Notes under the pieces: generated by a model
The model's input: only the letters and a program-made list of their open reading frames with translations
Databases searched by the model: none
Told to the model about the DNA's origin: nothing
Made by a program: the position numbers and the translations under genes
DNA from: Piedraia hortae CBS 480.64
Taxonomy: Eukaryota
Direction: 5' to 3'
Length of the DNA: 64,000 nt
Assembly (NCBI GenBank): GCA_010093745.1
Contig: MU005970.1
Coordinates: 143,549-207,548, forward strand
Shown: piece by piece, positions 31,374-46,507 of the stretch
How positions within the stretch are numbered: position 1 is the first letter of the stretch
How the letters are laid out: the number at the start of each line of letters is the position of its first letter

Positions 31374-33078
31374 ATGAGGCTACCAACGGCCTTGTTCGCT
31401 GCCGGAGCGCTGGCCCTGCCTGAGCTGTCCGTCTCAAAACTCGACCACCGGCTGCAAAAGTCCCATCTCACTCGTGGTACGCATAGCGCTGCCTTGTCAT
31501 GATAGCAGCCTCGTCTAATTCCACTCAGGTGTCCTAAAGCGTGGATTCCTCGAAACGACAGTGTACGATGTTGAGACATGGACTAAAGCTGGAGCTTACT
31601 ATGTCAACCTCACTGTTGGATCGCCTCCCCAGGAACAGATTGTTTATATTTCGACAGAATCTTCGGGCTTTTATTTTGAAGCCTCATCATCAAATGCTTG
31701 CAAGGGCGAAGTTTCTTTCGTTGAGTGTCGCGCAGGCTCTTTTGATCCGAGGAAGTCAAGTTCTTACAGAGTGGTTAAGCCATCCTTAGCATTCAATTAC
31801 ACCAATTATCAAACAAATATAACGGGTCCTGTTGCCAGGGATGTCGTGGGTATCGGCGATTTGCGCATCAATGACGTGCAATTCGTCTTATTTGAGACTC
31901 ACGAAACGAAGGTGTGGGCTGCAGCGGGTACACTGGGCGTCGGATATTCAACATTAGATTCTCCGGACAAGTCTTACACCAACATGCCTGAACTCTTGCA
32001 AGCAGGAGGTGCCATAAACAGTCGCTTGTACTCGGTATACCTCGATGACGAAGCAACCACAGGCTCCATCCTCTTTGGTGGGATCGATGTATCAAGGTAC
32101 ACAGGACCACTGACGACGCTCAATCTAATCCCTCAAAACGGCTCCGACACCACAATCAAGAGGTTTATCACCACCATTACCGGTCTCAGTGCGGCTGTCG
32201 GCGACAACTTTACGACCTTTTATTCAGATGGACCAAGTGATAGTAGCGCCTGGGACGTCAACGCGTCCAGTTTACCTGTCGAACTATCGTTAAGCACCAC
32301 TGCATCCTGGTTTCCCGCAACTTACTTCAACAACTACATCAGGCCGGCATTTCCCTACATCGACGATTTTCTTACAGCCCCCTGTTCTGAGCGCAATCGT
32401 AACGACAGCCTGACTCTCACACTCGGAGGTGCAGCTCAAATCACCGTTCCGTTACGTGAGTTTCTAGTACCCGTTTACAATCCAGGCACATCACTGCCTA
32501 TCCCATACCAAGACACCCAAGAAGCGCTCTGCATGTTCCTTGTTCGCCCAGACTATGGCCTGTCATTGGACGCCCCAGTTCTCGGTGAGTCCATCCTTCG
32601 AAGCATGTACGTCGTCTACGATCTCGACAACGGCCAAGTGTCGGTCGCGCAAGCTCACATGAACGCGACCGAGAAGAAACAAATCGTCACCGTCGAAGCA
32701 GGCCCCTCGGGCGTTGCCAAGGCTGCAAATCAACATTCTTACATCAGCGCACCACAGCAGACTTATAGCATTGCCCCACCAATCCTGGATGCTAGCTCAA
32801 ACATACAGATCAGCACGGTCAAGAGTCCTATTGGCACGGCTACTGGTATTGCGGCGTTCCCTGCTAATGGGCGGCCCTCTGCGAGCAGTACCGTCCATGC
32901 ATCCGCTACTAGCAATGGAAATTCTGGGGCTGGCACCCGGGCGTCTAGTGCAGCTAGGTCCAGTACGTCCAGTACGTCCAGTACGTCCAAGAGCGCTGCT
33001 GTCGGCCGGGGGACGTGCTGTAGAGGAGTTGTCAGCTTGCTGAGCTTGGGGCTCGTTGCTGTGCTGGTGATAATATGA
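31374..33078 (+). CDS. secreted, probably GPI-anchored pepsin-family (A1, yapsin-like) protein with both catalytic Asp replaced
   Basis: Signal peptide MRLPTALFAAGALA, intron 31477-31528, KR site, YYVNLTVGSPPQ, GTLGVGY, LYSVYLDD, GSILFGGID.SRYTGPL, VLGESILRSMYVVYDLDNGQVSVAQA, then a Ser/Thr tail and hydrophobic C-terminus. The two DT/SG motifs read STES and SLST. Confidence 0.88.
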
Positions 33079-34720: not shown

Positions 34721-36376
34721 TGAACTTAGTACGAATCCCTTTTGATGCTGAACAAGGACTCAGACAAGGTAGAAAAAAAAATCCAACCTTGGAAAAGGCG
34801 TCCGCTCATTCCTGGGTTTCGCAAACTACTACATGGGTTCGTTGAATACAACGCTCACTTGCGACTGACTCTCGAAAGAGCCTACAATTTGGTTGATGAA
34901 CGTATTGAATTCCCTGGTTGAGGCTGGACGAGGACTCAAGATGGATCCTGACAACGTGCTCTGGGCCCAATCGCCACTTGCTGGTTCCTGGGTTTCGCGA
35001 ATTTTTACCGGGAGTTCGTCGCTGGCACGGTAGTGAATGGATTCCGGCACCGAGGCGGGTTCCGATTCGTTAAACACATTCGTTTCCGATAACGAATGAT
35101 GTGGATGCCACCTATCGACACGCAGAGATGGATCGCTTTGGGTGCGGAACTGTGGTATGCTTGCGGCTGTTGCTATCAGTGCAGTTTGGTGCGAACACGC
35201 TTCTATGGGAACGCCAATGGGTCTAGGTTTGGATGTAGCATCTTTGGCAGGACGAAAGGGAATCCGATGCCAATAACCAGGTGGAGCTATCGCCCAGGTG
35301 ATGGTTTAGCCAACGATTTATTTTTGGTGGTAATCTACACCTCTGTGGGCAGGGAGTTCATGTGCCGGTCACGGACTGAACTTGCCTGAGCGGGCTGGAC
35401 AGATGACTTTCCTCCGAGGCAGGCCGTAAAGCTGCGCCGTTTCGTCCTTTCGATGTCTATCGGGGGCTTGGGGCCAGTGCTAGAAGTATATGGAGATGCC
35501 GCGTTTGCGGACTGGGGTCCCAGGGACAAAAGAGATTTATGACACCATGCGCCCTGAGTTTTACGGCACTACAGAATGTTGTTTGGCGAAGCTACGAGAC
35601 GATCAGCGTTTGCTCTTCTTGTTGGGAACTATGTACAGCACGTTAATATTTCATGGATTCCGACGACGGAAATGAGAGCAGACGGCTCCACGACGGCCCC
35701 CACCTCCGACAACTGTTAGAAAAGATCACGGCAGGTTGCAGAAATTAGACCTGCGAATGAGGAATATTTTGGTACGCCATAGAGAGGCGTGGCAGGTCTT
35801 TCGAACGTTGTCGGAGCTCATGCAAGGAAAGCTGAAAGTTCGAGCGCTGATTGCGTAGACTGCGTGAAGGATTAGGGAGATCCTCGTGAATGTTACGTAT
35901 GGAACGAATACAGCTTTGCCTCTTTCTGGGACCAATTCTGTAAAGTAGGTTACTGAGGGAGCAGAAATATATTTGTAGTGGGAGGTAGCTAACCTGGACA
36001 GTGGCTTGGATGGGAAGACCTTTGTGAAAAGTATTGATTTTTACTTTGAACAATTACCTATCCAATAGTATCAACCTAGTTTGTTTTGGATTCAAGCATC
36101 GCCGCTAGCGCATATGCAGGGCACTTGCATAGCAAGTCAGCGATACCTCCTACACTACCAGCTGCACCCTAGGTTTTTCCCTCACAGAGGTTTTCCCTCA
36201 GGGTTATGTCATATGTGACATGGTGAATGCGCCCTGCTAGTATACGACGTGACATCACCGGCCCACCGGTACAGAATTTCCATTCTGACGTCTCCTCATA
36301 GAGATATATAGTCATTCACACCGTCAGATCGACACTGGTGTTGACTCATATCCATCCTCATCTGTCCTGTTCCTGT

Positions 36377-36690
36377 TTCCGTCCACCGCTGCGCACTCTC
36401 AACCACGGGAGCCCAATCGCTACAGTTTGCAGTGGACCCGTTCGCGATTGCGGCCCCGTCTCCATCACTCTCCCACCACTTTTCCAGAAAGAGGTTGGTG
36501 GAGGCGGAGCCGCAATTACAAAAGTGCCGCGTCTAAACGAGCGGTCATGTGTACTGGAGTTCGATTGTGATACCCCTTGAACTCTGTCTCGCATGTCGCC
36601 AAGAATTAGGCACCGTACCCCTGATCGACATGTCGAGTCATGGGTCGTGGTTGTACAGCATGGGGTTGGCGGGTGGCGGAAGACTTTTTG
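36377..36690 (+). ncRNA. candidate structured non-coding RNA (family unassigned)
   Basis: Long-range closing helices plus several internal hairpins with G-U pairs on the + strand. TATATA lies near 36305 upstream and ACTTTTTGA directly downstream. Confidence 0.4.
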
Positions 36691-36966: not shown

Positions 36967-37605
36967 ATGCGTTGCTCAGCTGCGCTGCTGTCTCTGGCTG
37001 CTTCGGCCCTGGCTCAGACTTCAGCGTAAGTGTGTCGTTGGGATTGTGATAGATTTGCTGAAGGTTGTGACAGAGGGGATGACTGGGAGTCGATGCTCAT
37101 GACGGCCATGCCGTCTTCTCTCCTCGTCGAAGCCACGGGCAACCCCGATGCATTCATATCCGATGTTTCGTCCCAGCTCCTGGCCAGCACCGTCAAAACC
37201 CTGCCGGGTTGGTTCAAAGCGATGCCGACAGATGCACAACAGTACTTTACTATGGGTCTGGAGGAGTATATCAAGGAGCATGGACAGGGTTCAGCTACGA
37301 CAGCTTCCGGAGCGGCCTCTATAGCGGATGCTTCTGGCTCGGACTCAACGGCCACGGACTCGGCAATTAGCGATCAGAAAACCGCTTCGGACATTACAGA
37401 GTCGGGAAAGGCCACACACTCAGGTGGGAAGTCGACCGAAAGCTCGGCCACAGCTTCGGATTCGGAGATCAGCCAGACCTCAGATGGCCTTCCCGCCGTT
37501 GCTGCCCCTTCTAGTGCAGCTTCTGCCGCGGCTCCAGCAAGTCCTATGCCGGCCGTCGTCTTTGCGCTCGGTGCATCCCTTGTTGCCGGCTTGTTGGCCA
37601 TGTGA
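36967..37605 (+). CDS. small secreted, probably GPI-anchored Ser/Thr-rich protein, array paralogue A
   Basis: Signal MRCSAALLSLAASALAQ, phase-2 GT-AG intron, core TAMPSSL...FISDVSSQL..STVKTLPGWFKAMPTDAQQY, S/T stalk, hydrophobic tail. Confidence 0.85.
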
Positions 37606-38105
37606 TGTGCATCGTTTTTGGAGTTGGGAAGGAAAAGCATTAGCGGGAACGGCATCGGATTTAGTTACACTGCGTCGAGTATTGATAGAGCTGACTGCTT
37701 CAGACGATTCTATTTCCATCGTTGGTAATTGTTGGTGTCCACGTTGATCTGCTGGCCGTGTACATCCAACAGTACCCACGCGTGGCGCCAGACAAGGCTG
37801 CAGCGCCACAATATCAACGCATGTACTTGCGTACTCTATCCAACGGCCACTAACATCGACCATGAACAACGAACTTTGAAACGATATTCCATCCGGCTGT
37901 CAGTGCAAACAGGAGCAAAGACAATAAAATGATTGGCCGCATCGAACATCCAGACCGACCAGGCTCGGAAGTGGCTTTCGCCAAAGGATTCTGCACCGCG
38001 ACGGCACGAGCCAACCCCCAATGAGTACATAAACATAGCCTCTCAAAACCCCGGGGGTACTGGACATTGTCTTCCATAAGTCTCGTCGATACACATTCGT
38101 TCAAC

Positions 38106-38758
38106 ATGCACCACTCTCTCCTTCTCCTCCCGGCCCTCGCAGCGTTTGCTCTCGCGCAGAGCGGAACCGGCACCGAGTAGGTATTCCGACGCGAAAGCGA
38201 CTTGCCCACTCACCAAGCAATCACAGATATGAACACTATAGATCAATCATCGCCACGGCTGTGCCATCATCCATCCAAGCCGCAGCCGCTTCAAGCGTCG
38301 ACCAATTAACTTCCGAATTCATGGTCGGCTCAGCGACGACACCCCCACCTTGGTTCGCGGCACTGCAGAGCGATGTACAAGAGTACATCATCCCAGGCAT
38401 AAATGCATACTACAGCAGCCAAGCCAATGCAGTCGTAAACGGCACGATTGCGTCGTCCACGAGACATACTACGACTGTTACTGTATATGCCGGCGCCGCG
38501 AGTGGGAATGCAACGGCTGGGAATTCGACCGCTGTTGTGGCTACAACTTCTTCGAGCCGGCGGTCGACTTCACGATCGTCGACGAAGTCGACGGAACCTG
38601 CGACTACGTCGTCAGCGGAGCAGAGTTCACCGGCCAGCTCGGCGGCGGCAGCGAGTAGTCCGTCCTCTACAGGTAAGAGTTTTGCGGTCGGGCTTGAGTC
38701 GTTGCCTGTGGCGGGTATTACCATTGTCGCGGGTGTTGTTGGGTTGCTTGCTTTGTAG
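38106..38758 (+). CDS. small secreted, probably GPI-anchored protein, array paralogue B
   Basis: Signal MHHSLLLLPALAAFALAQ, phase-2 intron (GTAGGT..CAG), core TAVPSSI...LTSEF...TTPPPWFAALQSDVQEYIIPGI, S/T stalk, tail VAGITIVAGVVGLLAL. Confidence 0.85.
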
Positions 38759-39026
38759 CTGGTTTATTTCGTTGTCTTTTCAGTTTTGTATTGTTCCAAC
38801 ATTTGGCCAATGAGCTATGCAATATCCCGAATCTAGCCATGCGCAGTGGCTATGCAATGTTCCTCCCAATCAGCCTCATCCCTCGACCCAACACCCGTCC
38901 CAAAAACAGCTCAAGGCCTGACAAGGATGAAAAAGGTCCTTCAGCCTCACAGCCTGTAGACATAAAACCGCCCTCGATTATTTCACTCCCAGTCACTCGT
39001 TCATCCCACCCAACCGAATGAGAATC

Positions 39027-39470
39027 ATGAACCTCCTCCCCATTTTCCTCCTGGCAACCCTCACCTCAGGAGGCGAAACTACAACCCAAGCGTGCGTCCC
39101 ATCCTCATCCGGGGCACCCTACCCCCTTTATATTCATTGCCCCAGCAGTTCTAACACAAACAGCGACGAAGACTATTTAGAGTCCGTGATCGGCACCGCC
39201 CTCCCCCGAACCCTCTACGATTTATTAGAGACAAACCTCCCCTCCGCATTCGCAGCAATCAAACAAGAACTCTACGCACCCACAGCAACAGGTGAACCAA
39301 GTTGGTTCACGCACATGCCCACGCGCGCGCAGACCTTACTGGACCCGGGGGTGGTGGCATATGAGAAGACGCATAACTTTGCGTTGCCCACCGGGGGCAC
39401 AGGGAGACGTAGTAGGGCTGCTGCGCTGGGGGTTGGGGTTGCTGTGGGGGTTGGGGTATTGGGGGTGTAG
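39027..39470 (+). CDS. small secreted, probably GPI-anchored protein, array paralogue C (almost no stalk)
   Basis: Signal MNLLPIFLLATLTSG, 72-nt in-frame phase-2 intron 39092-39163 (GTGCGT..CTAAC..CAG), core TALPRTL...IKQEL..PTATGEPSWFTHMPTRAQ..DPGVVAYEKTHNF, tail LGVGVAVGVGVLGV. Confidence 0.85.
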   Translation: MNLLPIFLLATLTSGGETTTQACVPSSSGAPYPLYIHCPSSSNTNSDEDYLESVIGTALPRTLYDLLETNLPSAFAAIKQELYAPTATGEPSWFTHMPTRAQTLLDPGVVAYEKTHNFALPTGGTGRRSRAAALGVGVAVGVGVLGV

Positions 39471-40506
39471 GATCGTGGGTGTATGATATGAATGTGATGT
39501 TCTTTTGAAGAGTTCCAGTGGGATTGATGTTGGATGGGCGAGTTCGTGGTTGGAAGGATGACAGGTTGATGGGTTTGTCAGATGGAAAGGGTATTTGGGC
39601 TTAGGTTCAAGGAAGCTTAGTCTAGAGGTATAAGGTTTTTGTATGTGGTTTTGAGGGATATGTGAGGATGTTGAATGGGTTCGTTCTCGAGGTTGATGGT
39701 TTGACTGAGTCAGCATCGACTGTGGGGAAGATCGGGAGGTTTCATGACTAAGGTGGACAGTGGATAGAGAGAGGAGGGCAACTCCCCGCTAGGCTCGGGC
39801 CGCTTGGGGGATAGATGCTTCGGGGGTTCTAGCTGCGGTGGTCGGATGGATAAGCATCTTCGAGGAGAAAGATGAACACTTTTTAGCTTCGCAGTGCAAC
39901 ACATCGCCGAAACGGATTTGCGCAAGTGACTGCCGGACTGTTGGCCATCTGTTTGTTAGGTTTGAATTGTTCGGAGCTTTTTGAATGTGAAGTGTTCAAG
40001 CTGGGCGTCCCCGTCCTTCGGCAATATCCGCTGCGCAGCCCGTCGATGATACTACGTACTGCTTGCACCACGATCTATAAGTGGAAACTCTTATCCCAAA
40101 GGCTGGGTCTGGAGCAAACCTGCGCATGGTGTCGCACGCAGGCATCTCCACACCTGCATCAAGATCAGTCTGAGCCGGCGAATGAAACGCCACCTGTTAC
40201 GAGTCCTGTCTGCGGCTGTGGACGACAACGCGATCGATGAGGGAAGAACAAGCGAGCTCGTTCCAGGGCTTCAAAAATAGAGTTTCCACTTTTTTTCCCC
40301 GGTGAGATGACAGGTCCTGGCTGCCTTGCAACGGTTTCTTATTGGTCCGCAAGAGTTATGTTTCCCAGGCTGACCACATACACAGCCTGATCCTCCATGC
40401 TTACCGCATTTCTTTCGGCTAAAAGGCGGACGCCGGCAAAGCGACAAAAATTCCAATCTAACCCATCTAACCCTCCAAACCCAAAGACATATCAGAGCTC
40501 AGAACA

Positions 40507-41414
40507 ATGCATTCCCTCGTAGTTCTCCTCTCAACCCTAAATGTCGGCGTCTTCGCCCAAAGGCATGCCTTCCATATGACTTATCCGCAATTCGGCTAAC
40601 TCCCAGAAGCTACGATGACGAATACTTCAGCTCAACAGTGGAAACATCAATGACTACCGGTTACGGCCGTATTACTACCAGCGCGGGCGATTATGCCTCT
40701 ACGGATGTGTCCGGGAGTTCAACTCTAAGCGACCAATACAGCTCAATAGTTTCAGATGTCGCGTACTACAGCTCTATGCTCGAAACAGCATTGCCCTCCT
40801 CTCTTCTCAGCCTTATATCCGCCGACCCCGAAGCCGCAATATCGGAGATCAGCTCTGAACTCCACGCTTCCACCGGCCTACCTAGTTGGTTTACCCACCT
40901 GCCCACTCCCTTGCAGTCTGAGATATTGTTTGGCGTGGACGGATATGCCTCTATTACTTCATTGATAAGCGAGACTTTTGCGGCTACGGCAACAGGTTTT
41001 ACGAGTGAGCCGACAGAAATGTGAGTACCACCCAGCTCTAAGAGGGGCATCGCGAAAACAGCCTCTCTTAAAGGCCTTCTTTGAAGTTCTGATATGCTGA
41101 CTCTTAGCCGTAGATCTTCGAGCGAAACCAAAAGCTTGGACTATGGCAGTGGTGTAATTGCCAGCAGTGATGCACAGACTTTAACTGCGAGCTCCGACGT
41201 CAGCAGCAGCGCCGATAGCAGTGGCAACAGCAGTGCCACTAGCAACCGCAATGGCGATAGCAGCAACATCAGAACCAGCAGCCCCAGCCCCAGCACTAGC
41301 AGCACTGATAATACTGGAACACAAAGTTCTTCCGCAATGTCTTTGGGCTCGATAGGGACATTCGTCGCAGGATTCGCAATCGCGGTGGGAATTGGCGGGG
41401 TACTGGTTATCTGA
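40507..41414 (+). CDS. small secreted, probably GPI-anchored protein, array paralogue D (3 exons)
   Basis: Signal MHSLVVLLSTLNVGVFAQ, GC-AG intron 40563-40606, core TALPSSLLSLISADPEAAISEISSELHASTGLPSWFTHLPTPLQ, intron 41021-41113, S-rich stalk, tail FAIAVGIGGVLVI. Confidence 0.82.
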
Positions 41415-41862
41415 GGTTTGTAAGAACAACACTGGTTGTGTCATGTGGAGGACTCAAGATGGTGAGCATATGATACTGTCGTAATGTAGTTCGACATGTT
41501 TTTCTATTGTACACTTTGAATTTATCCATAAGAAGGCTGTAAGCCACTTGAAAAGTCTAGACTAGGCCAAATCATTTTGCCTTTAGCCCGATTCAACGGT
41601 TTTCCCGATTGGAAAATGGTTATTGCCTCAATTCAGACCTTTGTTCCACAAAAGAAATGTTCAAATTAAGATAACACCGTCAGACTGAGCGAAGGAATAG
41701 TTCAGCCTGATCCTTCGTTTTTGCTTCATTTCCCCTTCGACTATAAGCCCCAAGTGTTAGCGCAATGCTCCGCTTTAAAAGGCCCAAAGTGCCCCATCAT
41801 ATTCCATAGAAAGAGTTGTCGTTGAATCTCAAACACCGAGTCACACTTCAGAATCCAGAACC

Positions 41863-42502
41863 ATGCGTTCCCTTCTATTCATCATCCCAGCTCTGAGCAT
41901 TGGCGCCCTCGCCCAAAGGCATGCCTCAAAATCATATGCATACACAGTCCAACTAACCCTCCACAAGCGACGACGAGTACACGTCGTATGCCAATGTATT
42001 GTATACCGCAATGCCAGAGTCCCTTCGCAAGCTTGCCACGAGCGATGAAGAGGCTGCAATATCTGAGATTGCAGCTGAGTTTACGGCATCTACGGTTACA
42101 GGCATCCCAAGCTGGTTTACCCACATGCCCACCGCTGTGCAGGAGGATTTGGTTCCAGGAATACTCGATTACGAATCTACACATTCATTTGCAAAGGCTA
42201 CGTGAGTACCGCCCGCCCAACCATTCCCAATTCATTCCGTCCATTCTAAACAATGCAAACAATTCAATCTAACTCAACCCATAACAAACCATAACAACTT
42301 ACCCCACCCTACTCCATCTCATGTCGACCTACCGCATCCCACCCCCTTCTTCAACCAATGAATCGAGCTAACGCCTCCTAGTGGCGCCAGCACCAGCAAT
42401 GGAGGAAAGAAATCTTCCTCTGCACCTACCATGCGCTTTATAGGGGCAGTTTCTGCCGGAGTTGCGGTTGCGGTCGGAGTGGGTGGCGTATTGGTACTGT
42501 AA
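41863..42502 (+). CDS. small secreted, probably GPI-anchored protein, array paralogue E (3 exons)
   Basis: Signal MRSLLFIIPALSIGALAQ, GC-AG intron 41919-41967, core TAMPESL...EAAISEIAAEFTASTVTGIPSWFTHMPTAVQEDLVPGILDYESTHSF, intron 42202-42381, tail VAVAVGVGGVLVL*. Confidence 0.82.
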
Positions 42503-42623
42503 TCTATTGTTCGAGAATACGATAACTCTTCCTGGCGAAACTATATCATTTATCCTCCATATGAATTTCGAGTTGGAAACCTGTGGGGATTTGTGAAATC
42601 AGAAACTAGCTCTTCCTCCCGGA

Positions 42624-42641
42624 GGGGGGGGGGGGGGGGGG
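42624..42641. repeat. G18 homopolymer
   Basis: Direct reading; it lies between paralogue E and the broken paralogue F. Confidence 0.85.
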
Positions 42642-42920
42642 TGCTCTGAGTTTTCTACGGTAATATAGAAGCCCTCCCATCGCTATACCCGACTACCTTC
42701 CAGAAGTGCAGAGTTCATAGTGCGATGCGAAGGCAGAATCAATCCACACCGTGACAATCCAATCCCGCCATCAAACTTCACAGTCTTCCACCCGTATTTA
42801 GTGACACTCTGATATGCTGCTGCATCCCAGCCTGTAAAGCCAACCCCATGGAAGTCTCGTGCGAAGTACTCTGTTATGATGTGTCCTGGGTTCGGGCTGA
42901 GCTTGAAAAGGGATTTTGAC

Positions 42921-43348
42921 ATCGAGATTCACGCAGAGCCCACGGTTGAGCATGACCCACGGCTACAGGCCTCCCCAGCTGGTTTGCGTATATGCACACT
43001 TCCGTGCAGAACTGGTATGCTCCGGAGGTAGTCGAGTATGGCGCTACGCATTCGTTTATGAGCGCTGTGAGAGCTACGCGAGTGCTTACGTTCCCATCTA
43101 GTCCTAATTAATCGCATTCATCCCGATCTATACAAGTGATCCAACCTACACCGAGCTATGCCGACCTACTACGACTCACCTACATCCTCCCACGTCCCGT
43201 CCCCGAGCAAGAGCCACCTCAAGGAGACTGACTCCACAGCGGGAAATCCACAACCGCCCCCCGACTCGCAATCTCCCTACCCTCCACAGGAGGCGTCGTC
43301 GCGATCCTCACCATCGCGGTGGAGGTGGGAGTAGCATTACTCCTGTAG
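42921..43348 (+). pseudogene. 5'-truncated sixth paralogue (F) of the array
   Basis: TATGLPSWFAYMHTSVQNWYAPEVVEYGATHSF core, intron-like 43078-43239 (GCGAGT..CTGAC..CAG), tail GGVVAILTIAVEVGVALLL*. In-frame TGA at 42953, a frameshift upstream, and no signal-peptide exon. Confidence 0.75.
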
Positions 43349-44758
43349 AAATCCACTCTAGTTAAACCTATCCCGATGAGATCTTCCTACCCTTTCCTAT
43401 GCTTTGGAAGGGCGGGAGGTGATTTGACGGGTTGGAAGGCGGTGTGAAGGCCACGGTGGGGTGATGGGACGTTTGGGGATTAGGGAAAGGGCACGGTTTC
43501 GTCGCTGGGTATGATGGTTGATTCAGCCACTGGATGGCTGCGTAGGGACTACAGAGTATTAAGATGACTTATTGGCTGGTGATATGTATATGACGAAGTT
43601 GGGATCTAGCCCGCGAAGTGCATCTGCAGGGAGAGCATTGCTCAGTTGGATCATGCTCGGGGGTTGGTTTAGGTATTTGGCTTTTGTATGTTCGGCTACA
43701 AGATACCCGCAACCCGCGACTGGGAAAGTGATGAATTTTCTCTATGATGATGCCATAGATTAGGTGGGAGATTTACAAAGTACTCCCGTATAATCAAGAA
43801 GTGATGCTTTTCTCAGAGGGATATCCTAAATCCACCCGGCGTGACGAATGGATTCCCCAAGCGTGCAGTAGCCTACTGCATGCCACACACCCATCATTTT
43901 TGCAAACGCAGATGCTCCTCACGAGAATTATATACCCCGCGAATCGTGCTAGCATATATTCTCGAAGTTACGCAACCAGCATCTCGAATGCTGGTGGGTT
44001 GGGGATTCGGTGCAATTCCCAGTATTCATCTGTTATGATGGCGGACAATGGGGTTGCTCGTGTCTTTCCACTTGGAGGAATCATCCATCAGATCTCTCAC
44101 GTCCTTGGTTGCGCTTGCAACCCAGGATCAAGCTCTGTGATATAAATGTGACTCTTTATAATCCCGAGGGAACTCTATATTGGATGCGTAGTAACCGAGC
44201 ACTAAAAACTTTGGGGATTACTTTGAAAGTGGGTATCAAATTGGGTCTGTAGATTGCTCTCAGAGTTTCGAAGTCGAATTGTGAAAGTTTCCCTGGTGTG
44301 CCATTTCAGAGGGGCGAAAGTTGAAGCTTGCGTTGTCGGGGGTGTGAAACTCAAGGGAGGGTTCCAAAACGTCAAGTCAGAGCTTACGCCCAGAAAATAG
44401 AAAGGTTTTTGCTAGCAAGTTATTTAGTTTGAAACGGCCGAGCTCTGGAGTCCAGCATGAGCAAAGCTTATAAGCTTCGCTCATGCTGTTAAGAAGGTGC
44501 ATGGGGTATACCCCATGCACATTCCTAACCAGGAACCAACACCTCAAATCACCTCTCAAAACAACGACCTCCAAAACAATCTAACGTTTCCTCGATTCAT
44601 TTTATAAACAAATGTATCATTTTTATCTATCTTTATCCATTTTCACCCTTTTTTTATGATTTTCTAGTTTAACTACCACAAGGTGGTGGAATAACCCAAG
44701 CCTCATCCCCGTTTCTTGAAATGTTCGGCTATGAGGGGGTGAAGGAATAAACCAATCG

Positions 44759-46507
44759 TCACCGGCTTTGGTCGTAAAGGTTCTCTTCGTTCATAACGAA
44801 GTTAGAGGGCATGGAGAGATCGGTCATGTCAATATCTTCGTGACCGTTCACATCATTCAGCATGGCGCTTGCCTCCTGCTGTCCATTCGAATTCGGCTTG
44901 ATGATGTCTTTCTTCATCCCATCCGAGCAATCATCCGGAAATGCAAACTCAGCGGGATGCTCCCTTGCCGGGGACTGCAACCTTGAACCTCCTTCCTGCT
45001 TGATCCCATCCCCGACAGAAGACAGGCTACACTCTGACTCCCCCATCCTGCTCAAATTTCTCTCCGCGAGCTTACTGATACGCTCCCACCTGATCCTACG
45101 CGCGACCTCATTCGCAAACTTGTTTTTGGTCATGTCCTCTTGCTTCTGTGCCAATGAGTCAAACGTCTCCGGGAAGGTCGACTGCAGAGATGCATAGGCG
45201 CCGCTGGCAAGGATTCTTGTCGACCTAAAGACGTTAGTATATCGCTATGTTTATGGTGGGAGAAGACTTACACATCCCAGTGCTTTTCAGCCGTCTTGAT
45301 CGCGGACGCAATGATGGGTATCAGTTCGTCGATGTTCTTCTTCAGGTGGCTTCGGAAGGCGATATCAGTGGCGAGGTCTAGGGCACGGGAGACGACTTCG
45401 GTGCGGTCGCCGGAGATGCAATTCGCTACTGTCGTGCAAAGGCGTTCGAATAGGCATTCGTTGCCCATTCGTAGCCCGGTGATTGCTTTCCTCAGTTGAA
45501 CGAGGTGGCTGCATTGGAGTTGAGAGTCAGTCTTGGGCCAGTTGCGGATGAGGGCCTCGATGAGGGTCACGGCTAGCTGGGGCTCGCGAATGATGTGTTC
45601 TCCAATGCAGGAGATGAGGTAGGGTTCGAAGAGGTGGAGGTATTCGCATTTCTTGAAGAGTGGGATGAGAATGTTTTTAAAGAAGGGGCGGTATTCGCTT
45701 GCCATGAAGAGTTGTTCGTTGCGAATGTTCATGCCACGGAAGGTGAGGAAGTTGGGGATTGCATGGGAATAGGGCTCACCGCAAAGGTACTGGCTAATGA
45801 TTTCAGACATGCAGCGGCGAATGAGCTGGCGACGTGGTACGACGTAGCGGTACAGTTGGTGGAGGGCCTTGGTGAGCGCTAACCGTACTTGTTGGCTTGG
45901 TTGGTTCATTAGGTCGAGAAATTGACGGATGAATTTTTCGTCAATGAGCTCGGTGGCGGTAGTTGCGCGGAAGTCCTTGTGCAGGAAGACGTTCTCAAAC
46001 ATTTGGCAGGCTTGGAGGAAGTTGGGCTTCAGTGTGATGCTTTGTGTCAGAGTAGAAGTGTTGTGCGAATGCTAGAATCTCGCACCCCGTGTCAAAGGTC
46101 TTCTTCGTGTTGGAACCGCTATCAGACTCATCATTGACAGAATACTCTTCGCTGACCTCACTTTCTTTGGGCTTGCCTTCTTCTTCAGATGCACTACCTT
46201 CAGATGCACTACCATCTGCATCTTCATCTGACCCAAACTCGACTGGGTCGTGTCTTTCGGCATTGATACCATTCTGCGACTTGGCATCATCTTCCGGGTC
46301 AGCGTTATCTGGCACGGATTCATCAGAGCTAAGAACATGTTTATCATTTACATAGTGTTGCAGCCAAGCCGGAATGAACCCGATTTGCGAATTGGCATTG
46401 TCATCCGGCTTGGACGAAGCTGGATCTGACCTCTTGGAACGGTTGCTGTCTTCCTGTTTGTTTAAAACCAGTGCTAGTCTTCGTTTCCGTTTATCACAAT
46501 CAGACAT
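44759..46507 (-). CDS. highly divergent PP2A B56 (Rts1-like) regulatory subunit paralogue, about 550 aa, 3 exons
   Basis: Introns 46085-46040 and 45271-45225 join the track ORFs in frame. Recognisable B56 landmarks: IDEKFIRQFLDL, LHQLY...RQLIRR, ILIPLFK, LIRNWPKTDS, VANCISG...VVSRAL, LIPII, KHW, RWERISKLA. Confidence 0.75.

What the first reader, a model, noticed from the sequence alone, without database searches (positions are those of the whole stretch)
36967..43348. Head-to-tail array of six paralogues of an uncharacterised small cell-surface protein
Seen: five intact genes and one broken copy lie on the same strand. Each has a signal peptide, a phase-2 intron right after it, a shared roughly 60-aa core (TA[LMV]P.S....A.SEI..E....TG.PSWF..[ML]PT..Q...PG...Y), a Ser/Thr stalk ranging from almost none (C) to long (A, B, D), and a hydrophobic GPI-signal-like tail. 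The cores are strongly diverged and copy F is decaying. The ORF track splits or misses these genes. Inference: a birth-and-death family showing variants of one small domain at different heights in the cell wall (adhesion, recognition or masking), retained in an otherwise very streamlined region. I cannot name the core domain.
Basis: partly seen in the sequence, partly recalled or inferred. Interest (0 to 1): 0.8.

Follow-up and report, generated by a model that had tools for sequence, protein, structure and literature searches.

The report
Fungal surface-protein gene array, unnamed domain
A hair-colonising black fungus with a very small genome has multiplied an ordinary mould cell-surface protein gene into a row of six diverging copies; the protein's small head domain is widespread in moulds and lichens but has no name or tested function, so a role in sticking is plausible but unproven.

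Summary
The array is real: five intact genes (A-E) and one relic (F), head to tail. RNA-type contigs splice six of seven predicted introns, two of them GC-AG; C's intron is not seen spliced. A profile built only from outside relatives picks out exactly these six places in the window. The core is not special to this genome. It is a ~60-residue, cysteine-free, all-helical domain found in about 125 other fungal 50%-identity clusters, with no Pfam family and no solved fold. It heads GPI-type and single-pass membrane proteins. The five copies and a seventh gene elsewhere in the genome form one clade (97/96), and A-E share a private extension: a lineage-specific birth-and-death expansion. Best reading: non-enzymatic GPI-anchored wall glycoproteins serving coat or adhesion; that function is inferred. 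A language-model lead to yeast Srp1/Tip1 (seripauperin) proteins failed profile-profile tests, so these are an analogue only. Four look-ups found no earlier scan note on this family. Moderate-to-low interest.

The parts
36967..37605 (+). Copy A, 196 aa; exons 36967-37025 and 37074-37605; signal peptide, core, ~84-aa Ser/Thr/Ala stalk, GPI-type tail
   Evidence: Model; intron 37026-37073 skipped in contig; identical to public model P0003
38106..38758 (+). Copy B, 200 aa; exons 38106-38176 and 38227-38758; ~88-aa stalk with three N-glycosylation sequons
   Evidence: intron 38177-38226 skipped
39027..39470 (+). Copy C, 123 aa if the 72-nt in-frame intron 39092-39163 is spliced, 147 aa if retained; almost no stalk (~8 aa)
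   Evidence: splicing not seen in contigs; public model P0002 retains it
40507..41414 (+). Copy D, 255 aa; exons 40507-40562, 40610-41020, 41114-41414; GC-AG first intron; Ser/Thr-rich insert before the core; ~97-aa stalk
   Evidence: Joints (the first read with its 3-nt ambiguity); model
41863..42502 (+). Copy E, 136 aa; exons 41863-41918, 41968-42201, 42382-42502; GC-AG first intron; ~22-aa stalk; two lysines just before the likely GPI attachment site
   Evidence: identical to P0001; fold model
42800..43348 (+). Copy F, relic: open stretch 42956-43111 with the second half of the core; in-frame stops directly upstream; 5' half not recognisable; last exon 43240-43348 with hydrophobic tail. The left border is approximate.
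   Evidence: (61% DNA identity to E over 222 columns); covered only by unspliced contigs
36084..36424 (.). Dispersed ~340-nt repeat, solo-LTR-like (ends in CA, flanked by a 5-nt direct repeat), 540 nt upstream of copy A; neighbour, not part of the array
   Evidence: About 40 further places in the genome at 84-92% identity, 40 of 376 candidates scored; flanks

Best explanation
A lineage-specific tandem expansion of a common filamentous-ascomycete surface glycoprotein gene. Each intact copy is predicted to enter the ER by its signal peptide, to exchange its hydrophobic tail for a GPI anchor, to be O-mannosylated on its Ser/Thr stalk and to display a small acidic five-helix head at the membrane (E, C: short) or in the wall (A, B, D: long). 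The head is most likely non-enzymatic, a coat or adhesion module that contacts wall polymer, neighbouring hyphae, extracellular matrix or the hair surface. Duplication was followed by divergence of head, stalk and tail and by loss of F. Shown: gene structures, splicing of four copies, family membership, one clade. Inferred from established GPI-protein biology: anchoring and glycosylation. Guessed: the adhesion or coat role.
For: Anatomy. 90 of 141 outside relatives have the same head-stalk-GPI-type layout and 33 put the head on a single-pass membrane protein, so the head is extracellular. Its 16 columns conserved at 70% or more are mostly Pro, Trp, Phe, Leu and Ala, with no Asp, Glu, His, Cys, Lys or Arg, and 9 of 152 outside cores contain any Cys: no sign of a catalytic site. 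The fold model is confident over the head (pLDDT 80-93 in blocks, residues 21-90) and disordered over the stalk. One clade, 97/96; a G-[ILV]-x-x-Y extension in 5 of 5 intact copies and 0 of 142 outside proteins. The species makes a fibrillar matrix that glues hyphae together (PMC11551259, first 10,000 characters read) and has the smallest genome and gene count of 101 Dothideomycetes (PMC7082219, passages). A dibasic motif before the GPI site keeps proteins at the membrane in ascomycetes (PMC3280450, passages), which fits E.
Against: No member of the family has a tested function that I could find. All 30 look-ups by exact sequence gave 'hypothetical', 'uncharacterized', 'GPI anchored', 'transmembrane' or no name for the fungal proteins, apart from an automatic 'FAS1 domain' label on members of one cluster that Pfam did not reproduce for its representative. 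GPI anchoring was not predicted by a dedicated tool. The family also occurs in plant-, rock- and lichen-associated fungi, so the head is not a hair-specific device. Copy number in close relatives could not be counted, so six copies may be less unusual than it looks. The link to the matrix is ecological context only.
Confidence: 0.5

Rival explanations
1. The head captures small hydrophobic molecules (sterol, other lipids, pheromone), working like the yeast TIR/DAN/TIP, PAU and AFB1 proteins, with or without common descent; the array would be a parallel expansion for lipid scavenging on hair.
For: Same layout (short structured head, Ser/Thr stalk, GPI tail) as the yeast family (PMC9551191, passages). 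SRP1_TIP1 clusters were the top feature hits in the ESM Atlas for copy E (0.76) and for relative P0015 (0.79; 8 of the 10 best family hits agree). Both heads are all-helical with a Pro-(x)-Trp-aromatic motif late in the domain. The SRP1 HMM scored copies D and E second and third of 151 (5.1 and 4.5 bits; best reversed control 3.2).
Against: Both Atlas scores are under the 0.9 lead bar, and a third of shuffled proteins reach 0.8. Profile-profile: probability 0.7%, E 0.084, reached by 17 of 60 block-shuffled controls; long-type subfamily 0.2%, reached by 50 of 60, against a positive control of 99.5%. No PF00660 hit in 135 proteins at E 0.05 or in 18 family proteins at E 10. The family head (~60 aa) is shorter than SRP1_TIP1 (99 positions).
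Confidence: 0.2
2. The copies are largely redundant wall filler: a dosage-driven or near-neutral tandem amplification in a transposon-touched stretch, with relaxed selection explaining the divergence and the relic.
For: Copies B and C score below 89-95% of outside cores; B-C dN/dS is about 0.9; F is decayed; C may retain its intron; a solo-LTR-like repeat sits beside the array.
Against: Five frames have stayed open, with signal peptide, core and tail, over a time long enough to nearly saturate synonymous sites; dN/dS is about 0.2-0.5 in 5 of 6 computable pairs; four copies are spliced.
Confidence: 0.2
3. The head is a wall-contact or stress-probe module, and the GPI forms act as partners or decoys of membrane sensors that bear the same head.
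For: 33 of 141 outside relatives carry the head on a Ser/Thr stalk, one membrane helix and a cytosolic tail, the layout of Mid2/Wsc-type sensors; one has a sub-threshold Mid2 hit and one an automatic 'Mid2 domain' label.
Against: No membrane-tail member turned up in this genome in four single-protein searches (lower bounds). The Mid2 similarity lies in the stalk and membrane helix, not in the head.
Confidence: 0.1

Closest known systems
Unnamed filamentous-ascomycete family of 'GPI anchored protein'/'hypothetical protein' entries (e.g. P0010, P0013, P0015, P0017, P0019; three unnamed Ascomycota clusters in the ESM Atlas)
   Same: Same head domain (i-E down to 1e-20 from an outside-only HMM), same stalk and tail; this is the family the copies belong to.
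   Different: No Pfam or NCBIfam model and no tested function found. The array copies are more divergent, acidic (-5 to -9 against a median of -3) and carry a private C-terminal helix extension. Whether relatives are arrayed was not testable.
Srp1/Tip1 family (PF00660): TIR1-4, TIP1, DAN1/4, PAU, AFB1 of budding yeasts
   Same: Small helical head, variable Ser/Thr stalk and GPI tail; multigene expansion with functional divergence (PMC9551191); superficial Pro-Trp motif.
   Different: No significant sequence or profile homology; longer head with an invariant TGVPWYS-type motif; reported absent outside budding yeasts.
Fungal GPI adhesin arrays (ALS, EPA, FLO; recalled, not searched)
   Same: Head-stalk-GPI layout; clustered paralogues with variable stalks.
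   Different: Those have large beta-rich lectin or Ig-like heads and long tandem-repeat stalks (recalled); these proteins are 123-255 aa with a ~65-aa helical head and no Pfam adhesin hit.
Mid2/Wsc-type wall-stress sensors
   Same: About a quarter of the family has their membrane layout.
   Different: The array copies end in a terminal hydrophobic tail with no cytosolic part.

Membership tests
GPI-anchored fungal surface glycoproteins | N-terminal signal peptide | tested here: met
   Hydrophobic N-terminal stretch in A-E by hydropathy; no dedicated predictor available
GPI-anchored fungal surface glycoproteins | C-terminal GPI signal (small residues, spacer, terminal hydrophobic tail) | tested here: inconclusive
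   Terminal hydrophobic tails preceded by small residues in A-E, like 90 of 141 relatives; attachment site not predicted by a tool
GPI-anchored fungal surface glycoproteins | Ser/Thr-rich stalk | tested here: met
   S+T 0.36-0.47 in A, B, D, E; nearly absent in C
GPI-anchored fungal surface glycoproteins | Actual anchoring to membrane or wall glucan | not testable with these tools
   Needs proteomics
Unnamed filamentous-ascomycete helical-head family | Head with L-x-T-A-x-P-S ... P-x-W-F-x-x-L-P-x-x-x-Q pattern | tested here: met
   Outside-only HMM; column conservation
Srp1/Tip1 (PF00660) | Match to the Pfam model (cut-off 25 bits) | tested here: not met
   No hit for the copies, 135 search hits or 18 family proteins at E 10; the positive control P0152 scored 100.9 bits
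Srp1/Tip1 (PF00660) | Remote homology by profile-profile comparison | tested here: not met
   Probability under 1%, within shuffled controls; the yeast profile was shallow (23 rows, Neff 3-4, no AFB1 identified)
Srp1/Tip1 (PF00660) | Shared fold | tested here: inconclusive
   Both predicted all-helical; the PAU model is single-sequence, pLDDT 59, and the two models could not be superposed
Srp1/Tip1 (PF00660) | Role in sterol uptake or pheromone binding | not testable with these tools
   Needs experiment
ALS/EPA/FLO-type adhesins | Known adhesin head domain | tested here: not met
   No Pfam family on any copy other than a sub-threshold SOG2 hit in B's stalk; helical model

The most novel reading that the evidence does not exclude
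The unnamed head is the filamentous-fungal counterpart of the Srp1/Tip1/AFB1 head, reported absent outside budding yeasts, diverged beyond profile detection; and the array is an independent, seripauperin-like expansion that lets a gene-poor hair fungus bind or scavenge lipids on the hair surface.
Probability: 0.1. Interest if true: 0.7.

Novelty: new variant of a known kind. Interest (0 to 1): 0.36.

Why it matters
Two modest gains. First, a common extracellular domain of moulds and lichen fungi, present on both GPI-type and membrane-spanning proteins, has no Pfam entry, solved fold or function; the alignment made here defines it. Second, in a fungus that has shed more genes than any of 101 relatives surveyed yet builds hard, cemented nodules on hair, an expanded and diverged surface family is a concrete candidate for the unknown adhesive or matrix components. 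Tandem expansion of GPI wall genes is itself ordinary in fungi, so a specialist would not be very surprised.

Full report
Observation. The window is part of a 16.9-Mb fungal genome (G000), and the flanking genes are ordinary eukaryotic ones. The exact look-up of P0001, which is identical to my spliced copy E, carries the species label Piedraia hortae, the black-piedra fungus of human hair. Between 36967 and 43348 lie five intact spliced genes and one relic, all on the + strand. A (196 aa), B (200), C (123 or 147), D (255) and E (136) each have a hydrophobic N-terminus, a phase-2 intron directly after it, a shared core, a stalk of about 84, 88, 8, 97 and 22 residues, and a hydrophobic C-terminal tail. 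D and E have a second phase-2 intron, and their first introns are GC-AG.

Splicing. One public run holds the stretch; it is RNA by guess and kept as contigs. Its contigs skip six of the seven predicted introns: A 37026-37073, B 38177-38226, E 41919-41967 and 42202-42381 as modelled, and D 40563-40609 and 41021-41113, with acceptors 3 and 6 nt beyond my first choice. C's 72-nt intron is in frame, stop-free and unspliced in the contig; contigs drop rare forms, so this is open. F is covered only by unspliced contigs. F keeps the second half of the core (61% DNA identity to E over 222 columns) and a last exon with a hydrophobic tail, but has stops upstream and no recognisable first exon.

Is it more than chance? 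Yes. The six cores align with invariant P, W, F, Q and Y. An HMM made only from 152 cores of other fungi ranks the six copies first among 1581 frames of the window (i-E 2.6e-20 to 2.2e-3; next 0.4). A search of the genome with E found the six plus a weak seventh on contig C13. That locus has an open frame with the core and a GPI-type tail, and in turn finds D at E 6e-5. A typical outside member found A, C, D and E and no better copy elsewhere; such searches give lower bounds.

What the core is. The profile of the six cores found 135 clusters at E 0.001 or better among 1.84 billion representatives: five own proteins, five bacterial-type motif matches that I dropped, and about 125 proteins of fungal type. 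Named ones come from Friedmanniomyces, Elsinoe, Sphaerulina, Zasmidium, Zymoseptoria, Lineolata, Eremomyces, Coniosporium, Rhizodiscina, Lophium, Microthyrium, Delitschia, Cenococcum, Lojkania, Clarireedia, Toensbergia, Mycoblastus, Calogaya, Chrysothrix and Phylliscum; from recall these span several classes of filamentous ascomycetes, including lichen formers. All are hypothetical, uncharacterised or automatically labelled. Of 141 outside proteins classified by hydropathy, 90 end in a GPI-type tail, 33 have an internal membrane helix and a cytosolic tail, and 18 are fragments or neither; 8 carry two or three heads in tandem. No Pfam or NCBIfam model covers the head. AlphaFold gives five helices over residues 20-90 of E, confident in the head and disordered beyond. 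No solved structure matches by sequence or fold, which does not prove a new fold. Conserved columns are almost all structural; there is no conserved charged, His or Cys residue.

History of the array. In a tree of 85 cores (own copies plus outside cores under 62% identity to each other; F and short rows left out; 63 columns; bootstrap not fully settled) A-E and the C13 copy form one starred clade, 97/96. A-E alone are not a clade in the best tree but are not rejected as one (p-AU 0.42). A quick tree gave a weaker picture, with A outside, and long branches may attract. Independently, A-E share a G-[ILV]-x-x-Y extension of the last helix that is found in 0 of 142 outside proteins (pattern drawn from the copies themselves). 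The copies are 22-54% identical over the core (mean 37%), against a mean of 60% among 13 named relatives; those relatives were top hits, and I could not control for a generally fast-evolving genome. Synonymous sites are near saturation, and dN/dS is about 0.2-0.5 in five pairs and 0.9 in one, with four not computable. This fits an old local expansion kept under purifying selection, with one loss.

The Srp1/Tip1 lead. The ESM Atlas put SRP1_TIP1 clusters first for copy E (0.76) and for relative P0015 (0.79); both are under its lead bar. I fetched seripauperin loci and 48 PF00660 proteins and compared profiles: probability 0.7% with 17 of 60 shuffles as high, 0.2% with 50 of 60 for the long-type subfamily against a 99.5% positive control, and cross-HMM scores of at most 7 bits. 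Membership therefore fails; likeness of layout remains. Passages of PMC9551191 describe that family as a short structured head, Ser/Thr region and GPI tail, needed for anaerobic growth probably through sterol transport, with no homologues found outside budding yeasts. Its supplements were not opened and may hold more divergent sequences that bear on the test.

How it most likely works. Established pathway, applied by inference: ER entry, GPI transfer, O-mannosylation of the stalk, display of the head. E has two lysines before its likely attachment site, a membrane-retention signal in ascomycetes (PMC3280450, passages); E and C are short, while A, B and D could reach into the wall. I commit to a non-enzymatic coat or adhesion role at about even odds, because the head lacks catalytic signs, is reused on several surface architectures, and has expanded in a species that glues its hyphae with a fibrillar matrix of unknown make-up (PMC11551259, first part read) while having the fewest genes of 101 Dothideomycetes (PMC7082219, passages). 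Rivals are ligand capture as in TIR/AFB1 (0.2), redundant filler under relaxed selection (0.2) and a sensor-related role (0.1). No step of function is shown.

Novelty. Arrays of GPI wall genes are a known kind (recalled). What is new is the unnamed head family and its lineage-specific expansion here. Searches for a description found none, but the library lacks most subscription journals. Earlier scan notes hold nothing on it. Verdict: real, expressed in part, ordinary in layout, unnamed in its head; interest 0.36.

Noticed in passing
G000:C13:309879-310790 (L007:1015-1926): Seventh family member, dispersed: long N-terminal Ser/Thr/Pro region, divergent core, GPI-type tail; its first exon was not located. 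It groups with the array copies in the tree.
   Followed up: partly
window 36084-36424: Solo-LTR-like repeat with about 40 or more relatives in the genome; a contig that splices copy A begins inside it (36263), so it might supply a promoter, but contigs cannot show starts.
   Followed up: partly
window 35558-35719: Short frame whose end recalls the RNase H tail of copia-type retrotransposons (from memory); no Pfam hit.
   Followed up: partly
window 31519-33078: Aspartyl protease (Pfam Asp, E 2.7e-37) with a Ser/Thr stalk and a GPI-type tail, yapsin-like; a second surface-protein gene within 4 kb of the array.
   Followed up: no
window 45268-46071 (-): PP2A B56-family frame (E 3.5e-38) that matches only profile positions 116-359 of 413, in an A+T-richer stretch; possibly a divergent extra paralogue.
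   Followed up: no
window 40563-40609 and 41919-41967: D and E share a GC-AG first intron with the same donor context, which marks them as descendants of one duplicate.
   Followed up: yes
window 44453-44488: Near-perfect 36-nt palindrome (18-nt arms, 94% complementary) downstream of the array.
   Followed up: no
P0006, P0045, P0070 and 30 others: The same head sits on single-pass membrane proteins with a Mid2/Wsc-like layout in many fungi; an undescribed candidate sensor ectodomain.
   Followed up: partly
P0074: Family head, stalk and tail fused to a HET domain in one predicted protein; possibly a gene-model fusion.
   Followed up: no
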